The notes under the pieces are model-generated. The model was not told where the DNA came from, ran no database searches, and worked only from the letters and a program-made list of their open reading frames with translations. This document shows positions 1-8,293 of a DNA stretch of 8,293 nt, in pieces. A program made the translations under genes and the position numbers. Within the stretch, counting starts at the first letter, position 1. Each line of letters begins with the position of its first letter. Source of the stretch: Naegleria gruberi (taxonomy: Eukaryota); assembly GCA_000004985.1 (NCBI GenBank), contig GG739075.1. One strand, 5' to 3'.

Positions 1-221
1 CCCATAAATTCAATCGGAGTAAATTCATCATTTTTAGAACATTCCCATCGATTGGTTAAATATTTCATTTTGTAAAATTGTTGATTCCTAAATTTACATT
101 TCAACAATTCAAGTAATTGCTCCAAAGATGATGAAACAATTTTATAATTATTCGAATCATCATGATCACTACTATATTGAATATTAACGTCAGAGAAATT
201 TGGTTTCATTTTTTTTAACAT
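1..221 (-). CDS. Hypothetical protein, N-terminal part of a minus-strand gene that runs off the left edge of the window. Reverse-complement reading gives MLKKMKPNFSDVNIQYSSDHDDSNNYKIVSSSLEQLLELLKCKFRNQQFYKMKYLTNRWECSKNDEFTPIEFMG... The L-x2-LL-x2-L ... W region has only weak F-box-like character.
   Basis: On the minus strand there is an in-frame TAG stop (rc of 254..256), then ATG (rc of 219..221) and a second ATG (rc of 207..209). The frame stays open to position 1, at least 73 codons. It is transcribed divergently from the RNR small-subunit gene and is not in the supplied ORF track, probably because it has no stop within the window. No confident homology was recognised by eye. Confidence 0.35.
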   Translation of the reverse strand, partial: MLKKMKPNFSDVNIQYSSDHDDSNNYKIVSSSLEQLLELLKCKFRNQQFYKMKYLTNRWECSKNDEFTPIEFM

Positions 222-260
222 CCAGATTTCTAATTCCTTCTTTCTATTATTATGCTAACA

Positions 261-1394: not shown

Positions 1395-4300
1395 NNNNNN
1401 NNNNNNNNNNNNNNNNNNNNNNNNNNNNNNNNNNNNNNNNNNNNNNNNNNNNNNNNNNNNNNNNNNNNNNNNNNNNNNNNNNNNNNNNNNNNNNNNNNNN
1501 NNNNNNNNNNNNNNNNNNNNNNNNNNNNNNNNNNNNNNNNNNNNNNNNNNNNNNNNNNNNNNNNNNNNNNNNNNNNNNNNNNNNNNNNNNNNNNNNNNNN
1601 NNNNNNNNNNNNNNNNNNNNNNNNNNNNNNNNNNNNNNNNNNNNNNNNNNNNNNNNNNNNNNNNNNNNNNNNNNNNNNNNNNNNNNNNNNNNNNNNNNNN
1701 NNNNNNNNNNNNNNNNNNNNNNNNNNNNNNNNNNNNNNNNNNNNNNNNNNNNNNNNNNNNNNNNNNNNNNNNNNNNNNNNNNNNNNNNNNNNNNNNNNNN
1801 NNNNNNNNNNNNNNNNNNNNNNNNNNNNNNNNNNNNNNNNNNNNNNNNNNNNNNNNNNNNNNNNNNNNNNNNNNNNNNNNNNNNNNNNNNNNNNNNNNNN
1901 NNNNNNNNNNNNNNNNNNNNNNNNNNNNNNNNNNNNNNNNNNNNNNNNNNNNNNNNNNNNNNNNNNNNNNNNNNNNNNNNNNNNNNNNNNNNNNNNNNNN
2001 NNNNNNNNNNNNNNNNNNNNNNNNNNNNNNNNNNNNNNNNNNNNNNNNNNNNNNNNNNNNNNNNNNNNNNNNNNNNNNNNNNNNNNNNNNNNNNNNNNNN
2101 NNNNNNNNNNNNNNNNNNNNNNNNNNNNNNNNNNNNNNNNNNNNNNNNNNNNNNNNNNNNNNNNNNNNNNNNNNNNNNNNNNNNNNNNNNNNNNNNNNNN
2201 NNNNNNNNNNNNNNNNNNNNNNNNNNNNNNNNNNNNNNNNNNNNNNNNNNNNNNNNNNNNNNNNNNNNNNNNNNNNNNNNNNNNNNNNNNNNNNNNNNNN
2301 NNNNNNNNNNNNNNNNNNNNNNNNNNNNNNNNNNNNNNNNNNNNNNNNNNNNNNNNNNNNNNNNNNNNNNNNNNNNNNNNNNNNNNNNNNNNNNNNNNNN
2401 NNNNNNNNNNNNNNNNNNNNNNNNNNNNNNNNNNNNNNNNNNNNNNNNNNNNNNNNNNNNNNNNNNNNNNNNNNNNNNNNNNNNNNNNNNNNNNNNNNNN
2501 NNNNNNNNNNNNNNNNNNNNNNNNNNNNNNNNNNNNNNNNNNNNNNNNNNNNNNNNNNNNNNNNNNNNNNNNNNNNNNNNNNNNNNNNNNNNNNNNNNNN
2601 NNNNNNNNNNNNNNNNNNNNNNNNNNNNNNNNNNNNNNNNNNNNNNNNNNNNNNNNNNNNNNNNNNNNNNNNNNNNNNNNNNNNNNNNNNNNNNNNNNNN
2701 NNNNNNNNNNNNNNNNNNNNNNNNNNNNNNNNNNNNNNNNNNNNNNNNNNNNNNNNNNNNNNNNNNNNNNNNNNNNNNNNNNNNNNNNNNNNNNNNNNNN
2801 NNNNNNNNNNNNNNNNNNNNNNNNNNNNNNNNNNNNNNNNNNNNNNNNNNNNNNNNNNNNNNNNNNNNNNNNNNNNNNNNNNNNNNNNNNNNNNNNNNNN
2901 NNNNNNNNNNNNNNNNNNNNNNNNNNNNNNNNNNNNNNNNNNNNNNNNNNNNNNNNNNNNNNNNNNNNNNNNNNNNNNNNNNNNNNNNNNNNNNNNNNNN
3001 NNNNNNNNNNNNNNNNNNNNNNNNNNNNNNNNNNNNNNNNNNNNNNNNNNNNNNNNNNNNNNNNNNNNNNNNNNNNNNNNNNNNNNNNNNNNNNNNNNNN
3101 NNNNNNNNNNNNNNNNNNNNNNNNNNNNNNNNNNNNNNNNNNNNNNNNNNNNNNNNNNNNNNNNNNNNNNNNNNNNNNNNNNNNNNNNNNNNNNNNNNNN
3201 NNNNNNNNNNNNNNNNNNNNNNNNNNNNNNNNNNNNNNNNNNNNNNNNNNNNNNNNNNNNNNNNNNNNNNNNNNNNNNNNNNNNNNNNNNNNNNNNNNNN
3301 NNNNNNNNNNNNNNNNNNNNNNNNNNNNNNNNNNNNNNNNNNNNNNNNNNNNNNNNNNNNNNNNNNNNNNNNNNNNNNNNNNNNNNNNNNNNNNNNNNNN
3401 NNNNNNNNNNNNNNNNNNNNNNNNNNNNNNNNNNNNNNNNNNNNNNNNNNNNNNNNNNNNNNNNNNNNNNNNNNNNNNNNNNNNNNNNNNNNNNNNNNNN
3501 NNNNNNNNNNNNNNNNNNNNNNNNNNNNNNNNNNNNNNNNNNNNNNNNNNNNNNNNNNNNNNNNNNNNNNNNNNNNNNNNNNNNNNNNNNNNNNNNNNNN
3601 NNNNNNNNNNNNNNNNNNNNNNNNNNNNNNNNNNNNNNNNNNNNNNNNNNNNNNNNNNNNNNNNNNNNNNNNNNNNNNNNNNNNNNNNNNNNNNNNNNNN
3701 NNNNNNNNNNNNNNNNNNNNNNNNNNNNNNNNNNNNNNNNNNNNNNNNNNNNNNNNNNNNNNNNNNNNNNNNNNNNNNNNNNNNNNNNNNNNNNNNNNNN
3801 NNNNNNNNNNNNNNNNNNNNNNNNNNNNNNNNNNNNNNNNNNNNNNNNNNNNNNNNNNNNNNNNNNNNNNNNNNNNNNNNNNNNNNNNNNNNNNNNNNNN
3901 NNNNNNNNNNNNNNNNNNNNNNNNNNNNNNNNNNNNNNNNNNNNNNNNNNNNNNNNNNNNNNNNNNNNNNNNNNNNNNNNNNNNNNNNNNNNNNNNNNNN
4001 NNNNNNNNNNNNNNNNNNNNNNNNNNNNNNNNNNNNNNNNNNNNNNNNNNNNNNNNNNNNNNNNNNNNNNNNNNNNNNNNNNNNNNNNNNNNNNNNNNNN
4101 NNNNNNNNNNNNNNNNNNNNNNNNNNNNNNNNNNNNNNNNNNNNNNNNNNNNNNNNNNNNNNNNNNNNNNNNNNNNNNNNNNNNNNNNNNNNNNNNNNNN
4201 NNNNNNNNNNNNNNNNNNNNNNNNNNNNNNNNNNNNNNNNNNNNNNNNNNNNNNNNNNNNNNNNNNNNNNNNNNNNNNNNNNNNNNNNNNNNNNNNNNNN

Positions 4301-5986
4301 NNNNNNNNNNNNNNNNNNNNNNNNNNNNNNNNNNNNNNNNNNNNNNNNNNNNNNNNNNNNNNNNNNNNNNNNNNNNNNNNNNNNNNNNNNNNNNNNNNNN
4401 NNNNNNNNNNNNNNNNNNNNNNNNNNNNNNNNNNNNNNNNNNNNNNNNNNNNNNNNNNNNNNNNNNNNNNNNNNNNNNNNNNNNNNNNNNNNNNNNNNNN
4501 NNNNNNNNNNNNNNNNNNNNNNNNNNNNNNNNNNNNNNNNNNNNNNNNNNNNNNNNNNNNNNNNNNNNNNNNNNNNNNNNNNNNNNNNNNNNNNNNNNNN
4601 NNNNNNNNNNNNNNNNNNNNNNNNNNNNNNNNNNNNNNNNNNNNNNNNNNNNNNNNNNNNNNNNNNNNNNNNNNNNNNNNNNNNNNNNNNNNNNNNNNNN
4701 NNNNNNNNNNNNNNNNNNNNNNNNNNNNNNNNNNNNNNNNNNNNNNNNNNNNNNNNNNNNNNNNNNNNNNNNNNNNNNNNNNNNNNNNNNNNNNNNNNNN
4801 NNNNNNNNNNNNNNNNNNNNNNNNNNNNNNNNNNNNNNNNNNNNNNNNNNNNNNNNNNNNNNNNNNNNNNNNNNNNNNNNNNNNNNNNNNNNNNNNNNNN
4901 NNNNNNNNNNNNNNNNNNNNNNNNNNNNNNNNNNNNNNNNNNNNNNNNNNNNNNNNNNNNNNNNNNNNNNNNNNNNNNNNNNNNNNNNNNNNNNNNNNNN
5001 NNNNNNNNNNNNNNNNNNNNNNNNNNNNNNNNNNNNNNNNNNNNNNNNNNNNNNNNNNNNNNNNNNNNNNNNNNNNNNNNNNNNNNNNNNNNNNNNNNNN
5101 NNNNNNNNNNNNNNNNNNNNNNNNNNNNNNNNNNNNNNNNNNNNNNNNNNNNNNNNNNNNNNNNNNNNNNNNNNNNNNNNNNNNNNNNNNNNNNNNNNNN
5201 NNNNNNNNNNNNNNNNNNNNNNNNNNNNNNNNNNNNNNNNNNNNNNNNNNNNNNNNNNNNNNNNNNNNNNNNNNNNNNNNNNNNNNNNNNNNNNNNNNNN
5301 NNNNNNNNNNNNNNNNNNNNNNNNNNNNNNNNNNNNNNNNNNNNNNNNNNNNNNNNNNNNNNNNNNNNNNNNNNNNNNNNNNNNNNNNNNNNNNNNNNNN
5401 NNNNNNNNNNNNNNNNNNNNNNNNNNNNNNNNNNNNNNNNNNNNNNNNNNNNNNNNNNNNNNNNNNNNNNNNNNNNNNNNNNNNNNNNNNNNNNNNNNNN
5501 NNNNNNNNNNNNNNNNNNNNNNNNNNNNNNNNNNNNNNNNNNNNNNNNNNNNNNNNNNNNNNNNNNNNNNNNNNNNNNNNNNNNNNNNNNNNNNNNNNNN
5601 NNNNNNNNNNNNNNNNNNNNNNNNNNNNNNNNNNNNNNNNNNNNNNNNNNNNNNNNNNNNNNNNNNNNNNNNNNNNNNNNNNNNNNNNNNNNNNNNNNNN
5701 NNNNNNNNNNNNNNNNNNNNNNNNNNNNNNNNNNNNNNNNNNNNNNNNNNNNNNNNNNNNNNNNNNNNNNNNNNNNNNNNNNNNNNNNNNNNNNNNNNNN
5801 NNNNNNNNNNNNNNNNNNNNNNNNNNNNNNNNNNNNNNNNNNNNNNNNNNNNNNNNNNNNNNNNNNNNNNNNNNNNNNNNNNNNNNNNNNNNNNNNNNNN
5901 NNNNNNNNNNNNNNNNNNNNNNNNNNNNNNNNNNNNNNNNNNNNNNNNNNNNNNNNNNNNNNNNNNNNNNNNNNNNNNNNNNNNNN
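1395..5986. other. Assembly gap: 4,592 consecutive N. It hides the 3' half of the R2 gene and about 3 kb or more of unknown content.
   Basis: An uninterrupted run of n. The three ORF-track 'proteins' of ~1,500-1,700 aa (807..5990 +, 1300..6039 -, 1318..6042 +, 1343..6013 +, 1392..5999 -) are poly-X artefacts of translating N. Confidence 1.
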
Positions 5987-6169: not shown

Positions 6170-6265
6170 AATGAAATGGTGGTGAAGGAATTAATGATGG
6201 AAATTGATGATGAGAATGGGATGAACATGATTTGATGGAATTGGATGGATTTAGAATTGGAAAAT
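6170..6265 (+). repeat. Strand-asymmetric purine-rich low-complexity tract with only one C in ~95 nt. It is built from degenerate GGAAT / GATGG / AATGG-like units.
   Basis: The sequence aatgaaatggtggtgaaggaattaatgatggaaattgatgatgagaatgggatgaacatgatttgatggaattggatggatttagaattggaaaatc is read directly. It lies just 3' (in the minus sense) of the stop of the minus-strand exon, so it is probably 3'UTR. Confidence 0.4.
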
Positions 6266-6667
6266 CAAAACATATTGAGTTTCAGAAGTGGATATTGACT
6301 GTTTGTGAACACATGTTGATAAAATCATTTCATTCTTCAAATGTGAAATAACAGTTGAACCTTTTTTACATTCATCAAATGATGGTTTACAAATATTGAT
6401 AGAAATCCATGGATTTCCTTTTATGTAAATATCTGCAATATCACCACTGTCTTCAACATTTCCTTTTAAATCTGTTACTAAATAATTTTGTAATGTTTCA
6501 TTATTTGGACTATTATATTGGAATAATCCAACAAAATAAATAAAATCTTTAAAATAGGTTAAAGAATTAATTCCATTTTGGGAAGGATTTGAAGATTTTT
6601 GATTTTCTGTTAGAATTGTTCCTGTTTTGAAAGTTCTTGCATAATGACATAATATTTCAAGAATTAT
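6251..6667 (-). CDS. Probable terminal coding exon of an unannotated spliced minus-strand gene, hypothetical protein. The open frame has no ATG; the stop is TAA, rc of 6251..6253. The true 5' (acceptor) boundary is uncertain. The first AG after a poly-pyrimidine tract on the minus strand would put the exon start near 6635.
   Basis: The minus-strand frame is open for 138 codons between TAA (rc of 6668..6670) and TAA (rc of 6251..6253): IILEILCHYARTFKTGTILTENQKSSNPSQNGINSLTYFKDFIYFVGLFQYNSPNNETLQNYLVTDLKGNVEDSGDIADIYIKGNPWISINICKPSFDECKKGSTVISHLKNEMILSTCVHKQSISTSETQYVLIFQF*. In ~68% AT sequence the expected random open length is ~13 codons, so 138 codons is very unlikely by chance. The track missed it because it has no Met. 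Upstream on the minus strand is a T10 polypyrimidine run (rc of 6681..6690) followed by the first AG (rc of 6636..6637), a plausible 3' splice site. ATTAAA poly(A)-signal candidates lie on the minus strand ~110 and ~190 nt downstream of the stop. Confidence 0.4.
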   Translation of the reverse strand: MILEILCHYARTFKTGTILTENQKSSNPSQNGINSLTYFKDFIYFVGLFQYNSPNNETLQNYLVTDLKGNVEDSGDIADIYIKGNPWISINICKPSFDECKKGSTVISHLKNEMILSTCVHKQSISTSETQYVLIFQF

Positions 6668-7262
6668 TTATGGAATTGGAAAAAAAAAATTTAGTTAATT
6701 TTTAATTAAATATTAATAGCCATTTAGTTAGATACTAATTCAATGACTTGTACATTGAAAGAAGCACTAGTTCAACACCATGATTCATGTCTCTTTTCAA
6801 ATCCAAACCAGGTGAAACAAATTTCAATTCTGAAAATCATTTGAAAGTCATATTATCAAAGAATCAGTGTTTAATTCTTGAAAAAGATATGCTTAAAAAA
6901 TGGTATAAGAAATTTACATTCCTTCCAAAGATTGTTTCTGAAAAAATGGAATTTTTACAACGAACTATTGTAGTATGTTTTACAATACTTTTTAAAGATA
7001 TTAAACAATGATAGTTTACTATTGTATTGAGCAAGGGAGGTTCAGATTCTTTTGAAATATAGACAACACTTCCACCAGCAATATTTAAATTAATTATTCA
7101 GAGAATAAAGTCTGGAAGAGGATCACTTAGATTGTAATTGTTTTCAATGTTAAATTTCAAGAAACAAGTTTGGAAAGTGGTCTAATAAACTGTCGTGTGG
7201 CTATACTGGAACAACCAATCTGTACCCAAGTTCTGTTTTGGAATGTATTGGCAATAAAAAAA

Positions 7263-7469
7263 ATGAAACAAGCTCAGCAATTATTGTTGATGGTTGTTAT
7301 CATGTTCATCATCTACTTTATCAATACAACAACAATGTTTGTGAATTCAACAGCTAGTCAATGTACAGGTCCATATGATACACACGAAAGTGGAACTAAT
7401 ACTATTACACCTCGAGATTCTATTGAGAAATCTGTATTAAAATCCATGAATACACAAATCTCACATTAA
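7263..7469 (+). CDS. Small hypothetical protein of 68 aa with a hydrophobic N-terminal segment that could be a signal peptide or signal anchor. It may be the first exon of a larger gene.
   Basis: An ATG at 7263 in A-rich context (aaaaaaaATGa) is in frame with the track ORF 7170..7469, which itself starts at a TTG. The product is MKQAQQLLLMVVIMFIIYFINTTTMFVNSTASQCTGPYDTHESGTNTITPRDSIEKSVLKSMNTQISH*. It has a 14-residue hydrophobic core, two N-x-T/S sites and a TAA stop at 7467..7469. The ~100-codon open frame is only marginally significant for this base composition. Confidence 0.3.
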   Translation: MKQAQQLLLMVVIMFIIYFINTTTMFVNSTASQCTGPYDTHESGTNTITPRDSIEKSVLKSMNTQISH

Positions 7470-7701
7470 AAGAAATCCTAAACATTACAAAATAACTGGT
7501 CCTACCAATTTATCATCAAGTCAATCAAGAACTTTATTTACTGGAATTAAAAAGGAGAAATGTGTTGCCTGTAGATTAAATTGTAAAGATTTAAATGTTT
7601 TTAGTAAATGTAATGAAAAATACTATTATTATGGATGCAGAAAGAACCATGTTATAATAGAAAGAATGAAGACGAAACTGTTATTCAAACCGCCATTGTA
7701 A
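7450..7701 (+). CDS. ATG-less cysteine-rich open frame. It is a possible internal exon or the frameshifted continuation of the 7263 gene. The motif C-x2-C-x3-C-x8-C-x7-C-x3-H looks like a zinc-binding motif.
   Basis: Frame +1 relative to the 7263 ORF is open for 84 codons from 7450 to the TAA at 7699..7701: IHTNLTLKRNPKHYKITGPTNLSSSQSRTLFTGIKKEKCVACRLNCKDLNVFSKCNEKYYYYGCRKNHVIIERMKTKLLFKPPL*. It overlaps the end of the upstream ORF by 20 nt. It has no initiator Met except late in the frame. The Cys/His spacing is read directly; the family is not assigned. Confidence 0.22.
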   Translation: MHKSHIKRNPKHYKITGPTNLSSSQSRTLFTGIKKEKCVACRLNCKDLNVFSKCNEKYYYYGCRKNHVIIERMKTKLLFKPPL

Positions 7702-7873
7702 TTTGTATTGAAAAGAATTCATGCAAATTGAAGAAAGTTAATGCAATTAATCCTCAACAATATTTACAAATTTATATGCAAACTGTTTCACAATCACCTT
7801 ATTCTCCAAAAGATTATTAGAGCACAATTCTAAAATTGAATAAGTTTACAATTATTTCGAATAACAATAAAAA

Positions 7874-8263
7874 ATGCCCAAACATTCCTTCACTGATTTG
7901 TTAATTGTTGCAATAAGTGATGATCATCATACTTCCGATGATGATGATGATAATGATGATGAACATGATTGTGATAAATTAATATTTAAACATTTTCAAC
8001 AAATTTCCTCTGCCAGAATTGAAAAAAACAAATCAATTTATAAGCATCTATTATTATTAGAAAACCGATTAGAAACCATTTCCACATTCATTGAAAAATA
8101 TCCATTTCCTGATAATGATTGTAAATTGGCAATTTTTAAAGCAGTGAGTAAAAATGGATTATTTCTGGAAGCAGCTTCTGCAAATTTGAGAAATGATGAG
8201 GAAATTGTAATGAGAGCTGTTAAAAAAAATGTAAATGCTATAGAGTTTGTGAGTGAAGAATGA
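7874..8263 (+). CDS. Hypothetical acidic protein with a poly-Asp tract and a C-terminal DUF4116-type repeat. The TGA stop at 8261..8263 may instead lie inside an intron, because a GTGAGT donor starts at 8249.
   Basis: The ATG at 7874 is in A-rich context (aataaaaaATGc). The 129-aa product is MPKHSFTDLLIVAISDDHHTSDDDDDNDDEHDCDK...DCKLAIFKAVSKNGLFLEAASANLRNDEEIVMRAVKKNVNAIEFVSEE*. The segment KAVSKNGLFLEAASANLRNDEEIVMRAVKKNVNAIEFVSEE matches the DUF4116 repeat consensus (AV.qNG.aL.yAs.eLknD.eiV..AVkqNg.Al.fas.e). A 130-codon open frame is significant for this composition. Confidence 0.5.
   Translation: MPKHSFTDLLIVAISDDHHTSDDDDDNDDEHDCDKLIFKHFQQISSARIEKNKSIYKHLLLLENRLETISTFIEKYPFPDNDCKLAIFKAVSKNGLFLEAASANLRNDEEIVMRAVKKNVNAIEFVSEE
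7937..7976 (+). repeat. Imperfect (GAT)n trinucleotide microsatellite, coding poly-Asp (DDDDDNDDEHDCD) inside the 7874 CDS.
   Basis: The sequence gatgatgatgatgataatgatgatgaacatgattgtgat is read directly. Confidence 0.6.
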
Positions 8264-8293
8264 GAAGTGATAGAGAATTTGGAAGAGGATGAT

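What the first reader, a model, noticed from the sequence alone, without database searches (positions are those of the whole stretch)
7263..7701. Membrane/secretory-type N-terminus followed by a cysteine-rich frame, with the frames offset by +1
A 68-aa ORF with a 14-residue hydrophobic segment and N-glycosylation sequons stops at 7469. A second open frame, overlapping it by 20 nt in the +1 frame and lacking a start Met, carries KCVACRLNCKDLNVFSKCNEKYYYYGCRKNH, a C-x2-C…C…C…C-x3-H arrangement typical of a zinc-binding or disulfide-rich module. Either this is one gene whose exons are joined by a small intron, or a draft-assembly frameshift splits a single ORF, or they are two unrelated chance frames. 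If real, a secreted or membrane-anchored Cys-rich protein would be the most novel-looking product here.
Basis: partly seen in the sequence, partly recalled or inferred. Interest (0 to 1): 0.5.

Follow-up and report, generated by a model that had tools for sequence, protein, structure and literature searches.

The report
Frameshifted secreted cysteine-rich gene remnant

Summary
ORF 7263-7469 (68 aa) and the +1 open frame 7450-7701 exist as described. By length alone they are not beyond chance. By homology they are real.

The window is Naegleria gruberi. An exhaustive phmmer search with the Cys-rich frame found a small family in N. gruberi, N. fowleri, N. lovaniensis, Willaertia magna and metagenomes. 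Its members run: signal peptide, (A/S)TxSxC(R/T)xP motif, variable linker, F..TGPT..R..F.G motif, then a C-terminal domain with 8 invariant Cys.

A family HMM built without this locus hits three window pieces in collinear order:
- frame 0, 7263-7466
- frame +1, 7450-7641
- frame 0 again, 7641-7820

So this is one gene with two frame breaks. Intact relatives have no introns. No GT-AG intron keeps both conserved motifs. The second break is a missing CAGA unit, present in a ~97%-identical metagenome contig.

That contig carries its own lesions: a 280-nt deletion and an invariant Cys changed to Gly. The window has an invariant Gly changed to Val. Substitutions are 4 nonsynonymous to 1 synonymous, at a noncoding-like density.

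Best reading: a decaying pseudogene (about 0.62). The rival is an intact gene split by assembly errors (about 0.3). The zinc-finger reading is rejected. The family has no Pfam, PDB-sequence or fold match.

The parts
7263..7466 (+). Piece A, frame 0. ATG start, signal-peptide-like hydrophobic core (residues 7-20), conserved post-signal motif VNSTASQCTGP (7341-7373) and the start of the variable linker. It ends at a premature TAA, 7467-7469.
   Evidence: for the sequence. The family alignment shows V.AT.S.C(R/T).P straight after the hydrophobic segment in all full-length members. The family HMM, built without this locus, matches HMM positions 5-62 with E=9e-6.
7450..7466 (+). Zone of frame break 1, frame 0 to frame +1. 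The window has one extra nucleotide (or lacks two) somewhere in this 17-nt stretch, which contains an AAA run at 7456-7458.
   Evidence: The zone is bounded by the +1-frame stop TGA 7447-7449 and the frame-0 stop TAA 7467-7469. The family alignment runs through it without missing conserved residues. No usable GT-AG intron exists.
7450..7641 (+). Piece B, frame +1. Linker end, conserved NPKHYKITGPTN (7474-7509), ..R..F.G, and Cys 1-5 of the 8-Cys domain (CVACRLNC...C...YYYYGC; Cys codons at 7561, 7570, 7582, 7609, 7636).
   Evidence: phmmer of this frame against 1.84 billion representatives gave 11 hits, the best at E=8e-10. The family HMM matches positions 102-173 with E=1e-23.
7638..7641 (+). 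Frame break 2, frame +1 back to frame 0. The window has one CAGA unit where the near-identical contig L002 has CAGACAGA, a 4-nt loss. With it restored the protein reads GCRQKEPCY, which matches the family's invariant GC-x4-PC spacing.
   Evidence: Window versus L002 alignment.
7641..7820 (+). Piece C, frame 0. KEPCYNRKNEDETVIQTAIVICIEKNSCKLKK... carries Cys 6-8, then a C-terminal tail and stop TAG 7818-7820.
   Evidence: ORF 7635-7820. The family HMM matches positions 168-221 with E=1e-9. It is 93% identical to P0121 from L002.
7698..7700 (+). GTA (Val) at a position where all other family members, including the L002 allele (GGA), have Gly in the (G)IC motif.
7278..7557 (+). 280 nt absent from the related contig L002. 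They encode the signal-peptide core, the TASQCTGP motif and the TGPT motif. The window form is therefore ancestral, and L002 carries an independent disabling deletion.
   Evidence: blastn of window against L002 places the junction at GCTCAG|AAATGTG. The L002 ORF is P0121, MKQAQ|KCVACR....

Best explanation
Window 7263-7820 (+) is a single-exon Naegleria gruberi gene. It belongs to a small uncharacterised family restricted to Naegleria and Willaertia, with some environmental sequences.

Intact members are proteins of 210-400 aa built as follows:
- a cleavable signal peptide
- a conserved (A/S)T-x-S-x-C-(R/T)-x-P motif at the mature N-terminus
- a variable linker, often basic
- an F-x-x-TGPT...R..F.G motif
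- a C-terminal domain of about 60 residues, C-x2-C-x3-C...C...YYYYGC-x4-PC...GIC-x5-C, with 8 invariant cysteines

Because the proteins enter the secretory pathway, the cysteines are inferred to form four disulfides rather than bind zinc.

In this window the gene is broken twice. A +1-nt shift lies within 7450-7466. A 4-nt (CAGA) loss lies at 7638-7641. As written, the sequence can only give a 68-aa signal-peptide stub.

Most likely this copy is a pseudogene drifting neutrally. The allele in a ~97%-identical environmental strain is disabled by different lesions, and each allele has lost a different invariant residue.

Shown: the identity of the three frames as one family member, the absence of introns, and the lesions relative to L002. 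Inferred: secretion, disulfide bonding, and that the frame breaks are real mutations rather than assembly errors.
For: 1. **Organism.** The RNR small-subunit fragment 813-1394 is 100% identical to N. gruberi NAEGRDRAFT_31365.
2. **Homologues.** Exhaustive phmmer with the 83-aa +1 frame gave 11 hits at E<=1e-3. They come from N. gruberi, N. fowleri, N. lovaniensis, W. magna and metagenomes. A profile search added more members.
3. **Layout.** The alignments show the shared layout and 8 invariant Cys. Every member has exactly 8 Cys from the CxAC motif onward.
4. **Three pieces, one gene.** A family HMM built without this locus hits only the three pieces, in collinear order.
5. **No introns in relatives.** The P0124 gene is 654 nt for 217 aa. 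P0122, P0126, P0128 and P0139 are contiguous metagenome ORFs.
6. **No usable intron.** No GT-AG intron joins frame 0 to +1 while keeping both motifs.
7. **Lesions relative to L002.** L002 aligns at 94% (6579-7281) and 98% (7556-8293) identity. It has the extra CAGA that restores GCRQKEPCY. It lacks 280 nt (7278-7557) and has the invariant Cys changed to Gly. The window has the invariant Gly changed to Val.
8. **Substitution pattern.** Window versus L002 in 7558-7820 shows 5 changes in 263 nt, 4 nonsynonymous to 1 synonymous. The adjacent DUF4116 coding sequence shows 0 in 420 nt (Fisher p=0.008). The upstream noncoding stretch shows 8 in 251 nt.
9. **No annotated product.** No N. gruberi protein matching this locus was returned, and the simple ORF products are not in the 15-billion-protein collection.
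Against: - The reference sequence cannot be checked against reads. The neighbouring DUF4116 gene also has two 1-nt deletions relative to L002 (8260, 8281) with no substitutions in 420 nt. That pattern would also fit local indel errors in the reference assembly.
- If those are errors, frame break 1 (a single nucleotide next to an AAA run) could be one too.
- Frame break 1 cannot be compared with L002, because L002 lacks that segment.
- Once both frames are corrected, all 8 domain Cys and the N-terminal Cys are intact in the window allele, and no in-frame stop occurs.
- The substitution counts are small (5 sites), and their excess could lie mostly on the L002 lineage.
- There is no expression data.
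Confidence: 0.62

Rival explanations
1. This is an intact, functional family member in the living strain. On this view the two frame breaks, and the two 1-nt deletions in the neighbouring DUF4116 gene, are errors of the reference assembly.
For: - After two minimal corrections the ORF is complete, with all 9 expected Cys, both motifs and no internal stop.
- Break 1 needs only a 1-nt change beside an AAA run.
- The adjacent DUF4116 gene is an uninterrupted 1069-aa ORF with 23 repeats in L002. In the window it carries two single-T deletions but no substitution in 420 nt, which is an error-like pattern.
Against: - The N run in the window is a mask, not an assembly gap. The annotated RNR protein continues normally past 1394. 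There is therefore no sign of a low-coverage contig end here.
- Loss of a whole CAGA repeat unit is a typical replication-slippage mutation rather than a base-calling error.
- The window allele has Val at an otherwise invariant Gly.
- The L002 allele is independently disabled, and the locus changes at noncoding-like density with 4 nonsynonymous to 1 synonymous substitutions.
- No gene model for the locus was found.
Confidence: 0.3
2. This is a spliced gene, with the frames joined by one or two small introns.
For: N. gruberi does have spliceosomal introns (established knowledge). Fourteen GT...AG combinations formally join frame 0 to frame +1 without a stop.
Against: - Every such intron removes either the conserved TASQCTGP motif or the conserved NPKHYKITGPT...F.G motif. 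Both are encoded in open frame and match the family.
- The only GT dinucleotides in 7380-7480 are at 7390 and 7434. The nearest AG (7472) gives the wrong phase from 7434.
- Break 2 is a deficit of 4 nt inside the invariant GC-x4-PC spacing, so there is nothing to splice out.
- Relatives have no introns.
Confidence: 0.02
3. This is an intracellular zinc-binding module (HIT, MYND or another zinc finger) fused to a membrane anchor.
For: A C-x2-C pair is invariant (CVAC), and cysteines are spaced at short intervals.
Against: - No zinc-finger or any other Pfam family matches the window frames or any of 17 family members.
- All full-length members start with a signal-peptide-like segment followed by a (-3,-1) cleavage-type motif.
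- The domain has an even set of 8 invariant Cys.
- There is no PDB sequence or fold match to zinc fingers.
Confidence: 0.02
4. The frames are unrelated chance open frames in AT-rich intergenic DNA.
For: Frame lengths alone are not significant. An open stretch of at least 83 codons occurs in 54% of simulated 2.3-kb sequences. The first word-index protein search found nothing.
Against: One search was a false negative. The exhaustive search and the profile searches give E-values down to 1e-23, with three collinear pieces and 8 of 8 invariant Cys.
Confidence: 0.01

Closest known systems
Unnamed family of hypothetical proteins in Naegleria and Willaertia: N. gruberi NAEGRDRAFT_59834 (XP_002669905.1) and NAEGRDRAFT_63246; N. 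lovaniensis C9374_011957 and C9374_002114; N. fowleri FDP41_002008, FDP41_006351 and FDP41_000344; W. magna ABK040_001764
   Same: It shares the signal peptide and the (A/S)TxSxC(R/T)xP motif. It also shares the F..TGPT..R..F.G motif and the 8-Cys C-terminal domain with identical Cys spacing classes. The gene layout is single-exon. Identity to full-length members after frame correction is 23-37%.
   Different: The window copy is interrupted by two frame breaks and has Val for the invariant Gly. Its linker (about 65 residues) is shorter than in any intact member. It lacks the arginine- and lysine-rich amphipathic repeats of one subfamily.
P0121, a 93-aa ORF on ENA metagenome contig ERZ929261 k127_18364 (L002), which is the same locus in a closely related strain
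   Same: The locus is orthologous: 94% (6579-7281) and 98% (7556-8293) nucleotide identity, with the same flanking 74-aa ORF and DUF4116 gene. Protein identity is 93% over the Cys-rich domain.
   Different: L002 keeps the CAGACAGA and so stays in one frame. It has lost 280 nt (signal peptide and both N-terminal motifs) and has Gly for the fifth invariant Cys. The window keeps those parts but has the two frame breaks.
Zinc fingers of the HIT and MYND types
   Same: Only a C-x2-C pair and a high cysteine density.
   Different: There is no HMM match and no conserved His. The proteins carry a signal peptide and have 8 invariant Cys.
Lineage-specific small secreted cysteine-rich proteins in general, such as the saposin-like naegleriapores of Naegleria (from my own knowledge, not tested beyond Pfam)
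   Same: These too are secreted, small, stabilised by disulfides, restricted to one lineage and present as several paralogues in a bacterivorous amoeba.

Membership tests
Naegleria/Willaertia secreted 8-Cys family (unnamed; NAEGRDRAFT_59834-like) | N-terminal hydrophobic signal segment followed directly by V-x-(A/S)-T-x-S-x-C-(R/T)-x-P | tested here: met
   The window has LLLMVVIMFIIYFI...VNSTASQCTGP (7263-7373). It aligns to the family and matches HMM positions 5-62 at E=9e-6.
Naegleria/Willaertia secreted 8-Cys family (unnamed; NAEGRDRAFT_59834-like) | F/Y-x-x-TGPT...R-x-x-F-x-G motif before the Cys domain | tested here: met
   HYKITGPTNLSSSQSRTLFTG in frame +1 (7483-7545).
Naegleria/Willaertia secreted 8-Cys family (unnamed; NAEGRDRAFT_59834-like) | Eight invariant Cys in the pattern C-x2-C-x3-C...C...YYYYGC-x4-PC...GIC-x5-C | tested here: met
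   All eight codons are present: 7561, 7570, 7582, 7609 and 7636 in frame +1, and three more in frame 0. They are contiguous only after a 4-nt correction.
Naegleria/Willaertia secreted 8-Cys family (unnamed; NAEGRDRAFT_59834-like) | One uninterrupted, intron-less ORF | tested here: not met
   There are two frame changes, at 7450-7466 and 7638-7641. Relatives are uninterrupted. The locus is therefore a disrupted copy, not an intact member.
Naegleria/Willaertia secreted 8-Cys family (unnamed; NAEGRDRAFT_59834-like) | Invariant Gly in the G-I-C motif | tested here: not met
   The window has Val (GTA 7698-7700). All 17 family sequences in A2, including L002's P0121, have Gly.
Naegleria/Willaertia secreted 8-Cys family (unnamed; NAEGRDRAFT_59834-like) | Actual secretion and disulfide bonding of the product | not testable with these tools
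   Inferred from the signal-peptide-like N-terminus, the (-3,-1) motif and the even number of invariant Cys. No experimental data were found.
Zinc finger (HIT, MYND or other) | Match to a zinc-finger profile with conserved Cys/His ligands | tested here: not met
   No Pfam zinc-finger hit at E<=1 for the window frames or for 17 family members. No His column is conserved.
Spliced (intron-containing) gene | A GT-AG intron whose removal gives one ORF that keeps the conserved family motifs | tested here: not met
   An enumeration of all GT...AG pairs found 14 stop-free joins, each deleting a conserved motif. Break 2 is a deficit of nucleotides.
Processed or unitary pseudogene | Disabling lesions plus relaxed constraint (nonsynonymous-to-synonymous ratio near neutral, noncoding-like divergence, loss of invariant residues) | tested here: inconclusive
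   There are two frame breaks, Gly to Val, 4 nonsynonymous to 1 synonymous changes, and 5/263 versus 0/420 substitutions (p=0.008). The L002 allele has independent lesions. The counts are small, and the reference sequence could not be verified against reads.

The most novel reading that the evidence does not exclude
The family this locus belongs to could be a new class of secreted effector or antimicrobial pro-protein of heterolobosean amoebae, including the pathogen N. fowleri. It would combine an 8-Cys domain that has no detectable sequence or structural relative with a second element in one subfamily. That element is an acidic pro-piece followed by arginine- or lysine-rich amphipathic helices resembling cationic antimicrobial peptides. 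On the same reading, the window copy might be intact in the living strain, with its frame breaks being assembly errors. It would then be an unannotated functional gene.
Probability: 0.15. Interest if true: 0.55.

Novelty: new member of a known kind. Interest (0 to 1): 0.3.

Why it matters
For this locus the practical value is annotation. An apparently empty stretch of about 0.6 kb in N. gruberi is a disrupted copy of a real gene family, and the 'zinc-finger-like' pattern is an artefact of reading past a frameshift.

Comparing two nearly identical strains, each with different disabling lesions, gives a small clean example of ongoing gene death in a lineage-specific family.

The family itself may deserve a look. 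It is secreted, has an 8-Cys domain, and has no Pfam, PDB or fold relative. It is present in N. fowleri, and some members carry linkers that resemble antimicrobial peptides. That interest belongs to the intact paralogues, not to this copy.

Tried and rejected
- **Word-index protein search with the three frames joined.** It found nothing. This proved to be a false negative, because the exhaustive search found the family. The profile word-index search also missed several of its own query members. Negative results from that tool are therefore weak.
- **Exact look-ups of window ORF products and of P0001, P0002 and P0127.** None is on record, so the N. gruberi reference locus with its gene calls could not be fetched.
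- **Synteny with N. lovaniensis downstream of the RNR gene (L001).** There is no similarity to the window tail. The 207-aa neighbour there is unrelated.
- **The P0124 locus (L003).** It is not syntenic either.
- **JGI metagenome scan with the frame-corrected protein.** No relative was found.
- **Pfam on the window frames and on the family; PDB sequence profile search.** No match.
- **Literature.** No paper mentions the locus tags or the metagenome project. One search gave no N. gruberi intron statistics.
- **tRNA and tandem-repeat scans.** Nothing relevant.

Full report
**1. What is in the sequence**

The window is AT-rich (about 28% GC). It carries a run of N from 1395 to 5986.

At the finding, ATG 7263 opens a 68-codon ORF that ends at TAA 7467-7469. 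It has a 14-residue hydrophobic run and two N-x-S/T sequons. A second frame, +1 relative to the first, is open from 7450 to TAA 7699-7701. It contains KCVACRLNCKDLNVFSKCNEKYYYYGCRKNH.

A third ORF follows immediately, back in frame 0, at 7635-7820 (61 aa). The minus strand has no comparable open frame here.

Length alone proves nothing. Open stretches of at least 83 codons occur in 54% of Markov-simulated sequences of this size and composition.

**2. Organism**

The partial ORF 813-1394 is a ribonucleotide reductase small subunit (Pfam PF00268). It is 100% identical to N. gruberi NAEGRDRAFT_31365.

That annotated protein continues normally beyond residue 194. The N run is therefore a mask on the window, not an assembly gap.

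Downstream, 7874-8293 starts a DUF4116-repeat gene.

**3. Homology**

A word-index search with the three frames joined found nothing. This turned out to be a false negative.

An exhaustive phmmer search of 1.84 billion representatives with the 83-aa +1 frame gave 11 hits at E<=1e-3, the best at 8e-10. The hits are hypothetical proteins of N. gruberi, N. fowleri, N. lovaniensis and Willaertia magna, plus metagenome ORFs. A profile search added seven more members.

Aligned, the members share one layout:
- a signal-peptide-like N-terminus
- V.(A/S)T.S.C(R/T).P
- a variable linker
- F..TGPT..R..F.G
- a C-terminal domain with 8 invariant Cys: C-x2-C-x3-C...C...YYYYGC-x4-PC...GIC-x5-C

Every member has exactly eight Cys from the CxAC motif onward.

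**4. The three window frames are one gene**

I built a family HMM without the window and without P0121. It hits exactly three of the 160 open stretches in the window, in collinear order:

| Window piece | Frame | HMM positions | E-value |
|---|---|---|---|
| 7131-7466 | 0 | 5-62 | 9e-6 |
| 7450-7698 | +1 | 102-173 | 1e-23 |
| 7617-7817 | 0 | 168-221 | 1e-9 |

**5. How the pieces are joined**

Relatives have no introns. P0124 occupies 654 nt for 217 aa in N. lovaniensis. Several full-length members are contiguous ORF calls on metagenome contigs.

*Break 1.* The shift must lie between the +1-frame stop at 7447-7449 and the frame-0 stop at 7467-7469. I enumerated all GT...AG pairs. None joins the frames while keeping both the TASQCTGP motif and the NPKHYKITGPT motif.

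*Break 2.* An ENA metagenome contig (L002) aligns to window 6579-7281 at 94% and to 7556-8293 at 98% nucleotide identity. It has the same flanking genes. It reads GGAGGCAGACAGAAAGAACCA where the window reads GGATGCAGAAAGAACCA. The window therefore lacks one CAGA unit. Restoring it gives GCRQKEPCY, the family's invariant GC-x4-PC spacing.

A deficit of nucleotides cannot be an intron. Both joins are frameshifts.

**6. Real decay or assembly error?**

*Evidence for decay:*
- The L002 allele is disabled by different lesions. It has a 280-nt deletion (window 7278-7557) that removes the signal peptide and both N-terminal motifs. It also has the fifth invariant Cys changed to Gly.
- The window allele has the invariant Gly of GIC changed to Val.
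- Of five substitutions between the alleles in 7558-7820, four are nonsynonymous.
- The substitution density is 5 in 263 nt. That is like the upstream noncoding stretch (8 in 251) and unlike the adjacent DUF4116 coding sequence (0 in 420, Fisher p=0.008).
- Loss of one unit of a two-copy tandem repeat is a typical slippage mutation.
- No annotated N. gruberi product for the locus was found.

*Evidence for error:*
- The DUF4116 gene in the window also carries two single-T deletions relative to L002 (8260, 8281) with no substitution. In L002 that gene is an intact 1069-aa ORF with 23 repeats.
- Break 1 is a single base beside an AAA run.
- After correction the window ORF has every conserved Cys and no stop.

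I put a real pseudogene at about 0.62 and an intact gene split by errors at about 0.3. Only reads can decide.

**7. What the family is**

No member matches any Pfam model. The family profile matches no PDB sequence.

The inferred mechanism for intact members is as follows. The protein enters the ER co-translationally. The signal is cleaved after the (-3,-1) V-x-A/S site. Four disulfides form in the 8-Cys domain. The protein is then secreted. The function is unknown.

A zinc-finger role is rejected. The 'x3-H' is out-of-frame read-through and no His is conserved. The proteins carry signal peptides, and no zinc-finger model matches.

**8. Verdict**

It is not an intron-containing gene, not a zinc finger and not chance.

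The locus is a disrupted copy, probably a pseudogene, of an existing but uncharacterised amoeba-specific family. It is of modest interest in itself.

Noticed in passing
window 7874-8293 (L002 1049-4258): The DUF4116-repeat gene that starts at 7874 stops at TGA 8261-8263 in the window. Relative to the near-identical contig L002, a T is missing at 8260 and another at 8281. In L002 the ORF runs for 1069 aa with 23 DUF4116 repeats. There are no substitutions in 420 nt but two frameshifts. Either the reference has local indel errors or this gene is also freshly broken.
   Followed up: partly
window 1395-5986: The 4592-base N run is a mask, not an assembly gap. The annotated N. gruberi RNR protein (NAEGRDRAFT_31365, 338 aa) continues with normal sequence past the point where the window turns to N.
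   Followed up: yes
window 6787-7011 (+); L002 211-435: A 74-aa ORF (MSLFKSKPGETNF...FKDIKQ) is identical at protein level in the related strain. The only two nucleotide differences are synonymous, while the flanking noncoding DNA differs more. It has no Pfam match. It may be a real small gene or an exon.
   Followed up: partly
window about 6260-6650 (-): This is the longest open stretch in the unmasked tail, at 138 codons on the minus strand (...NSPNNETLQNYLVTDLKGNVEDSGDIADIYIKGNPWISINICKPSFDECKKG...). It has no in-frame ATG near its start and no Pfam match. It may be an exon of an unidentified gene.
   Followed up: partly
window 1-230 (-): A minus-strand ORF starts near 230 (MLKKMKPNFSDVNIQYSSDHDDSNNYKIV...) and runs off the window start. 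It has no Pfam match.
   Followed up: partly
family members P0129, P0130, P0140, P0141, P0142, P0144 (not in the window): One subfamily carries, between the N-terminal motif and the TGPT motif, an acidic stretch followed by arginine- or lysine-rich amphipathic repeats. An example is FRRFRRFFRRVGRVFRRIGRFIGRVLKGVFKLF, with hydrophobic moment up to 1.19 and net charge +8 to +9 per 18 residues. These resemble cationic antimicrobial peptides with an anionic pro-piece. The window copy lacks them.
   Followed up: partly
window 7099-7262 versus L002 520-705: The region just upstream of the ATG differs from the related strain by indels of 2, 6 and 17 nt and by a cluster of substitutions at 7109-7141. 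Natural indel polymorphism between these strains is therefore common.
   Followed up: no
(tool behaviour): The word-index protein search missed P0121, which shares a 26-residue exact match with the query. In profile mode it also missed several sequences that were part of the query alignment. Its negative results should not be taken as absence.
   Followed up: yes
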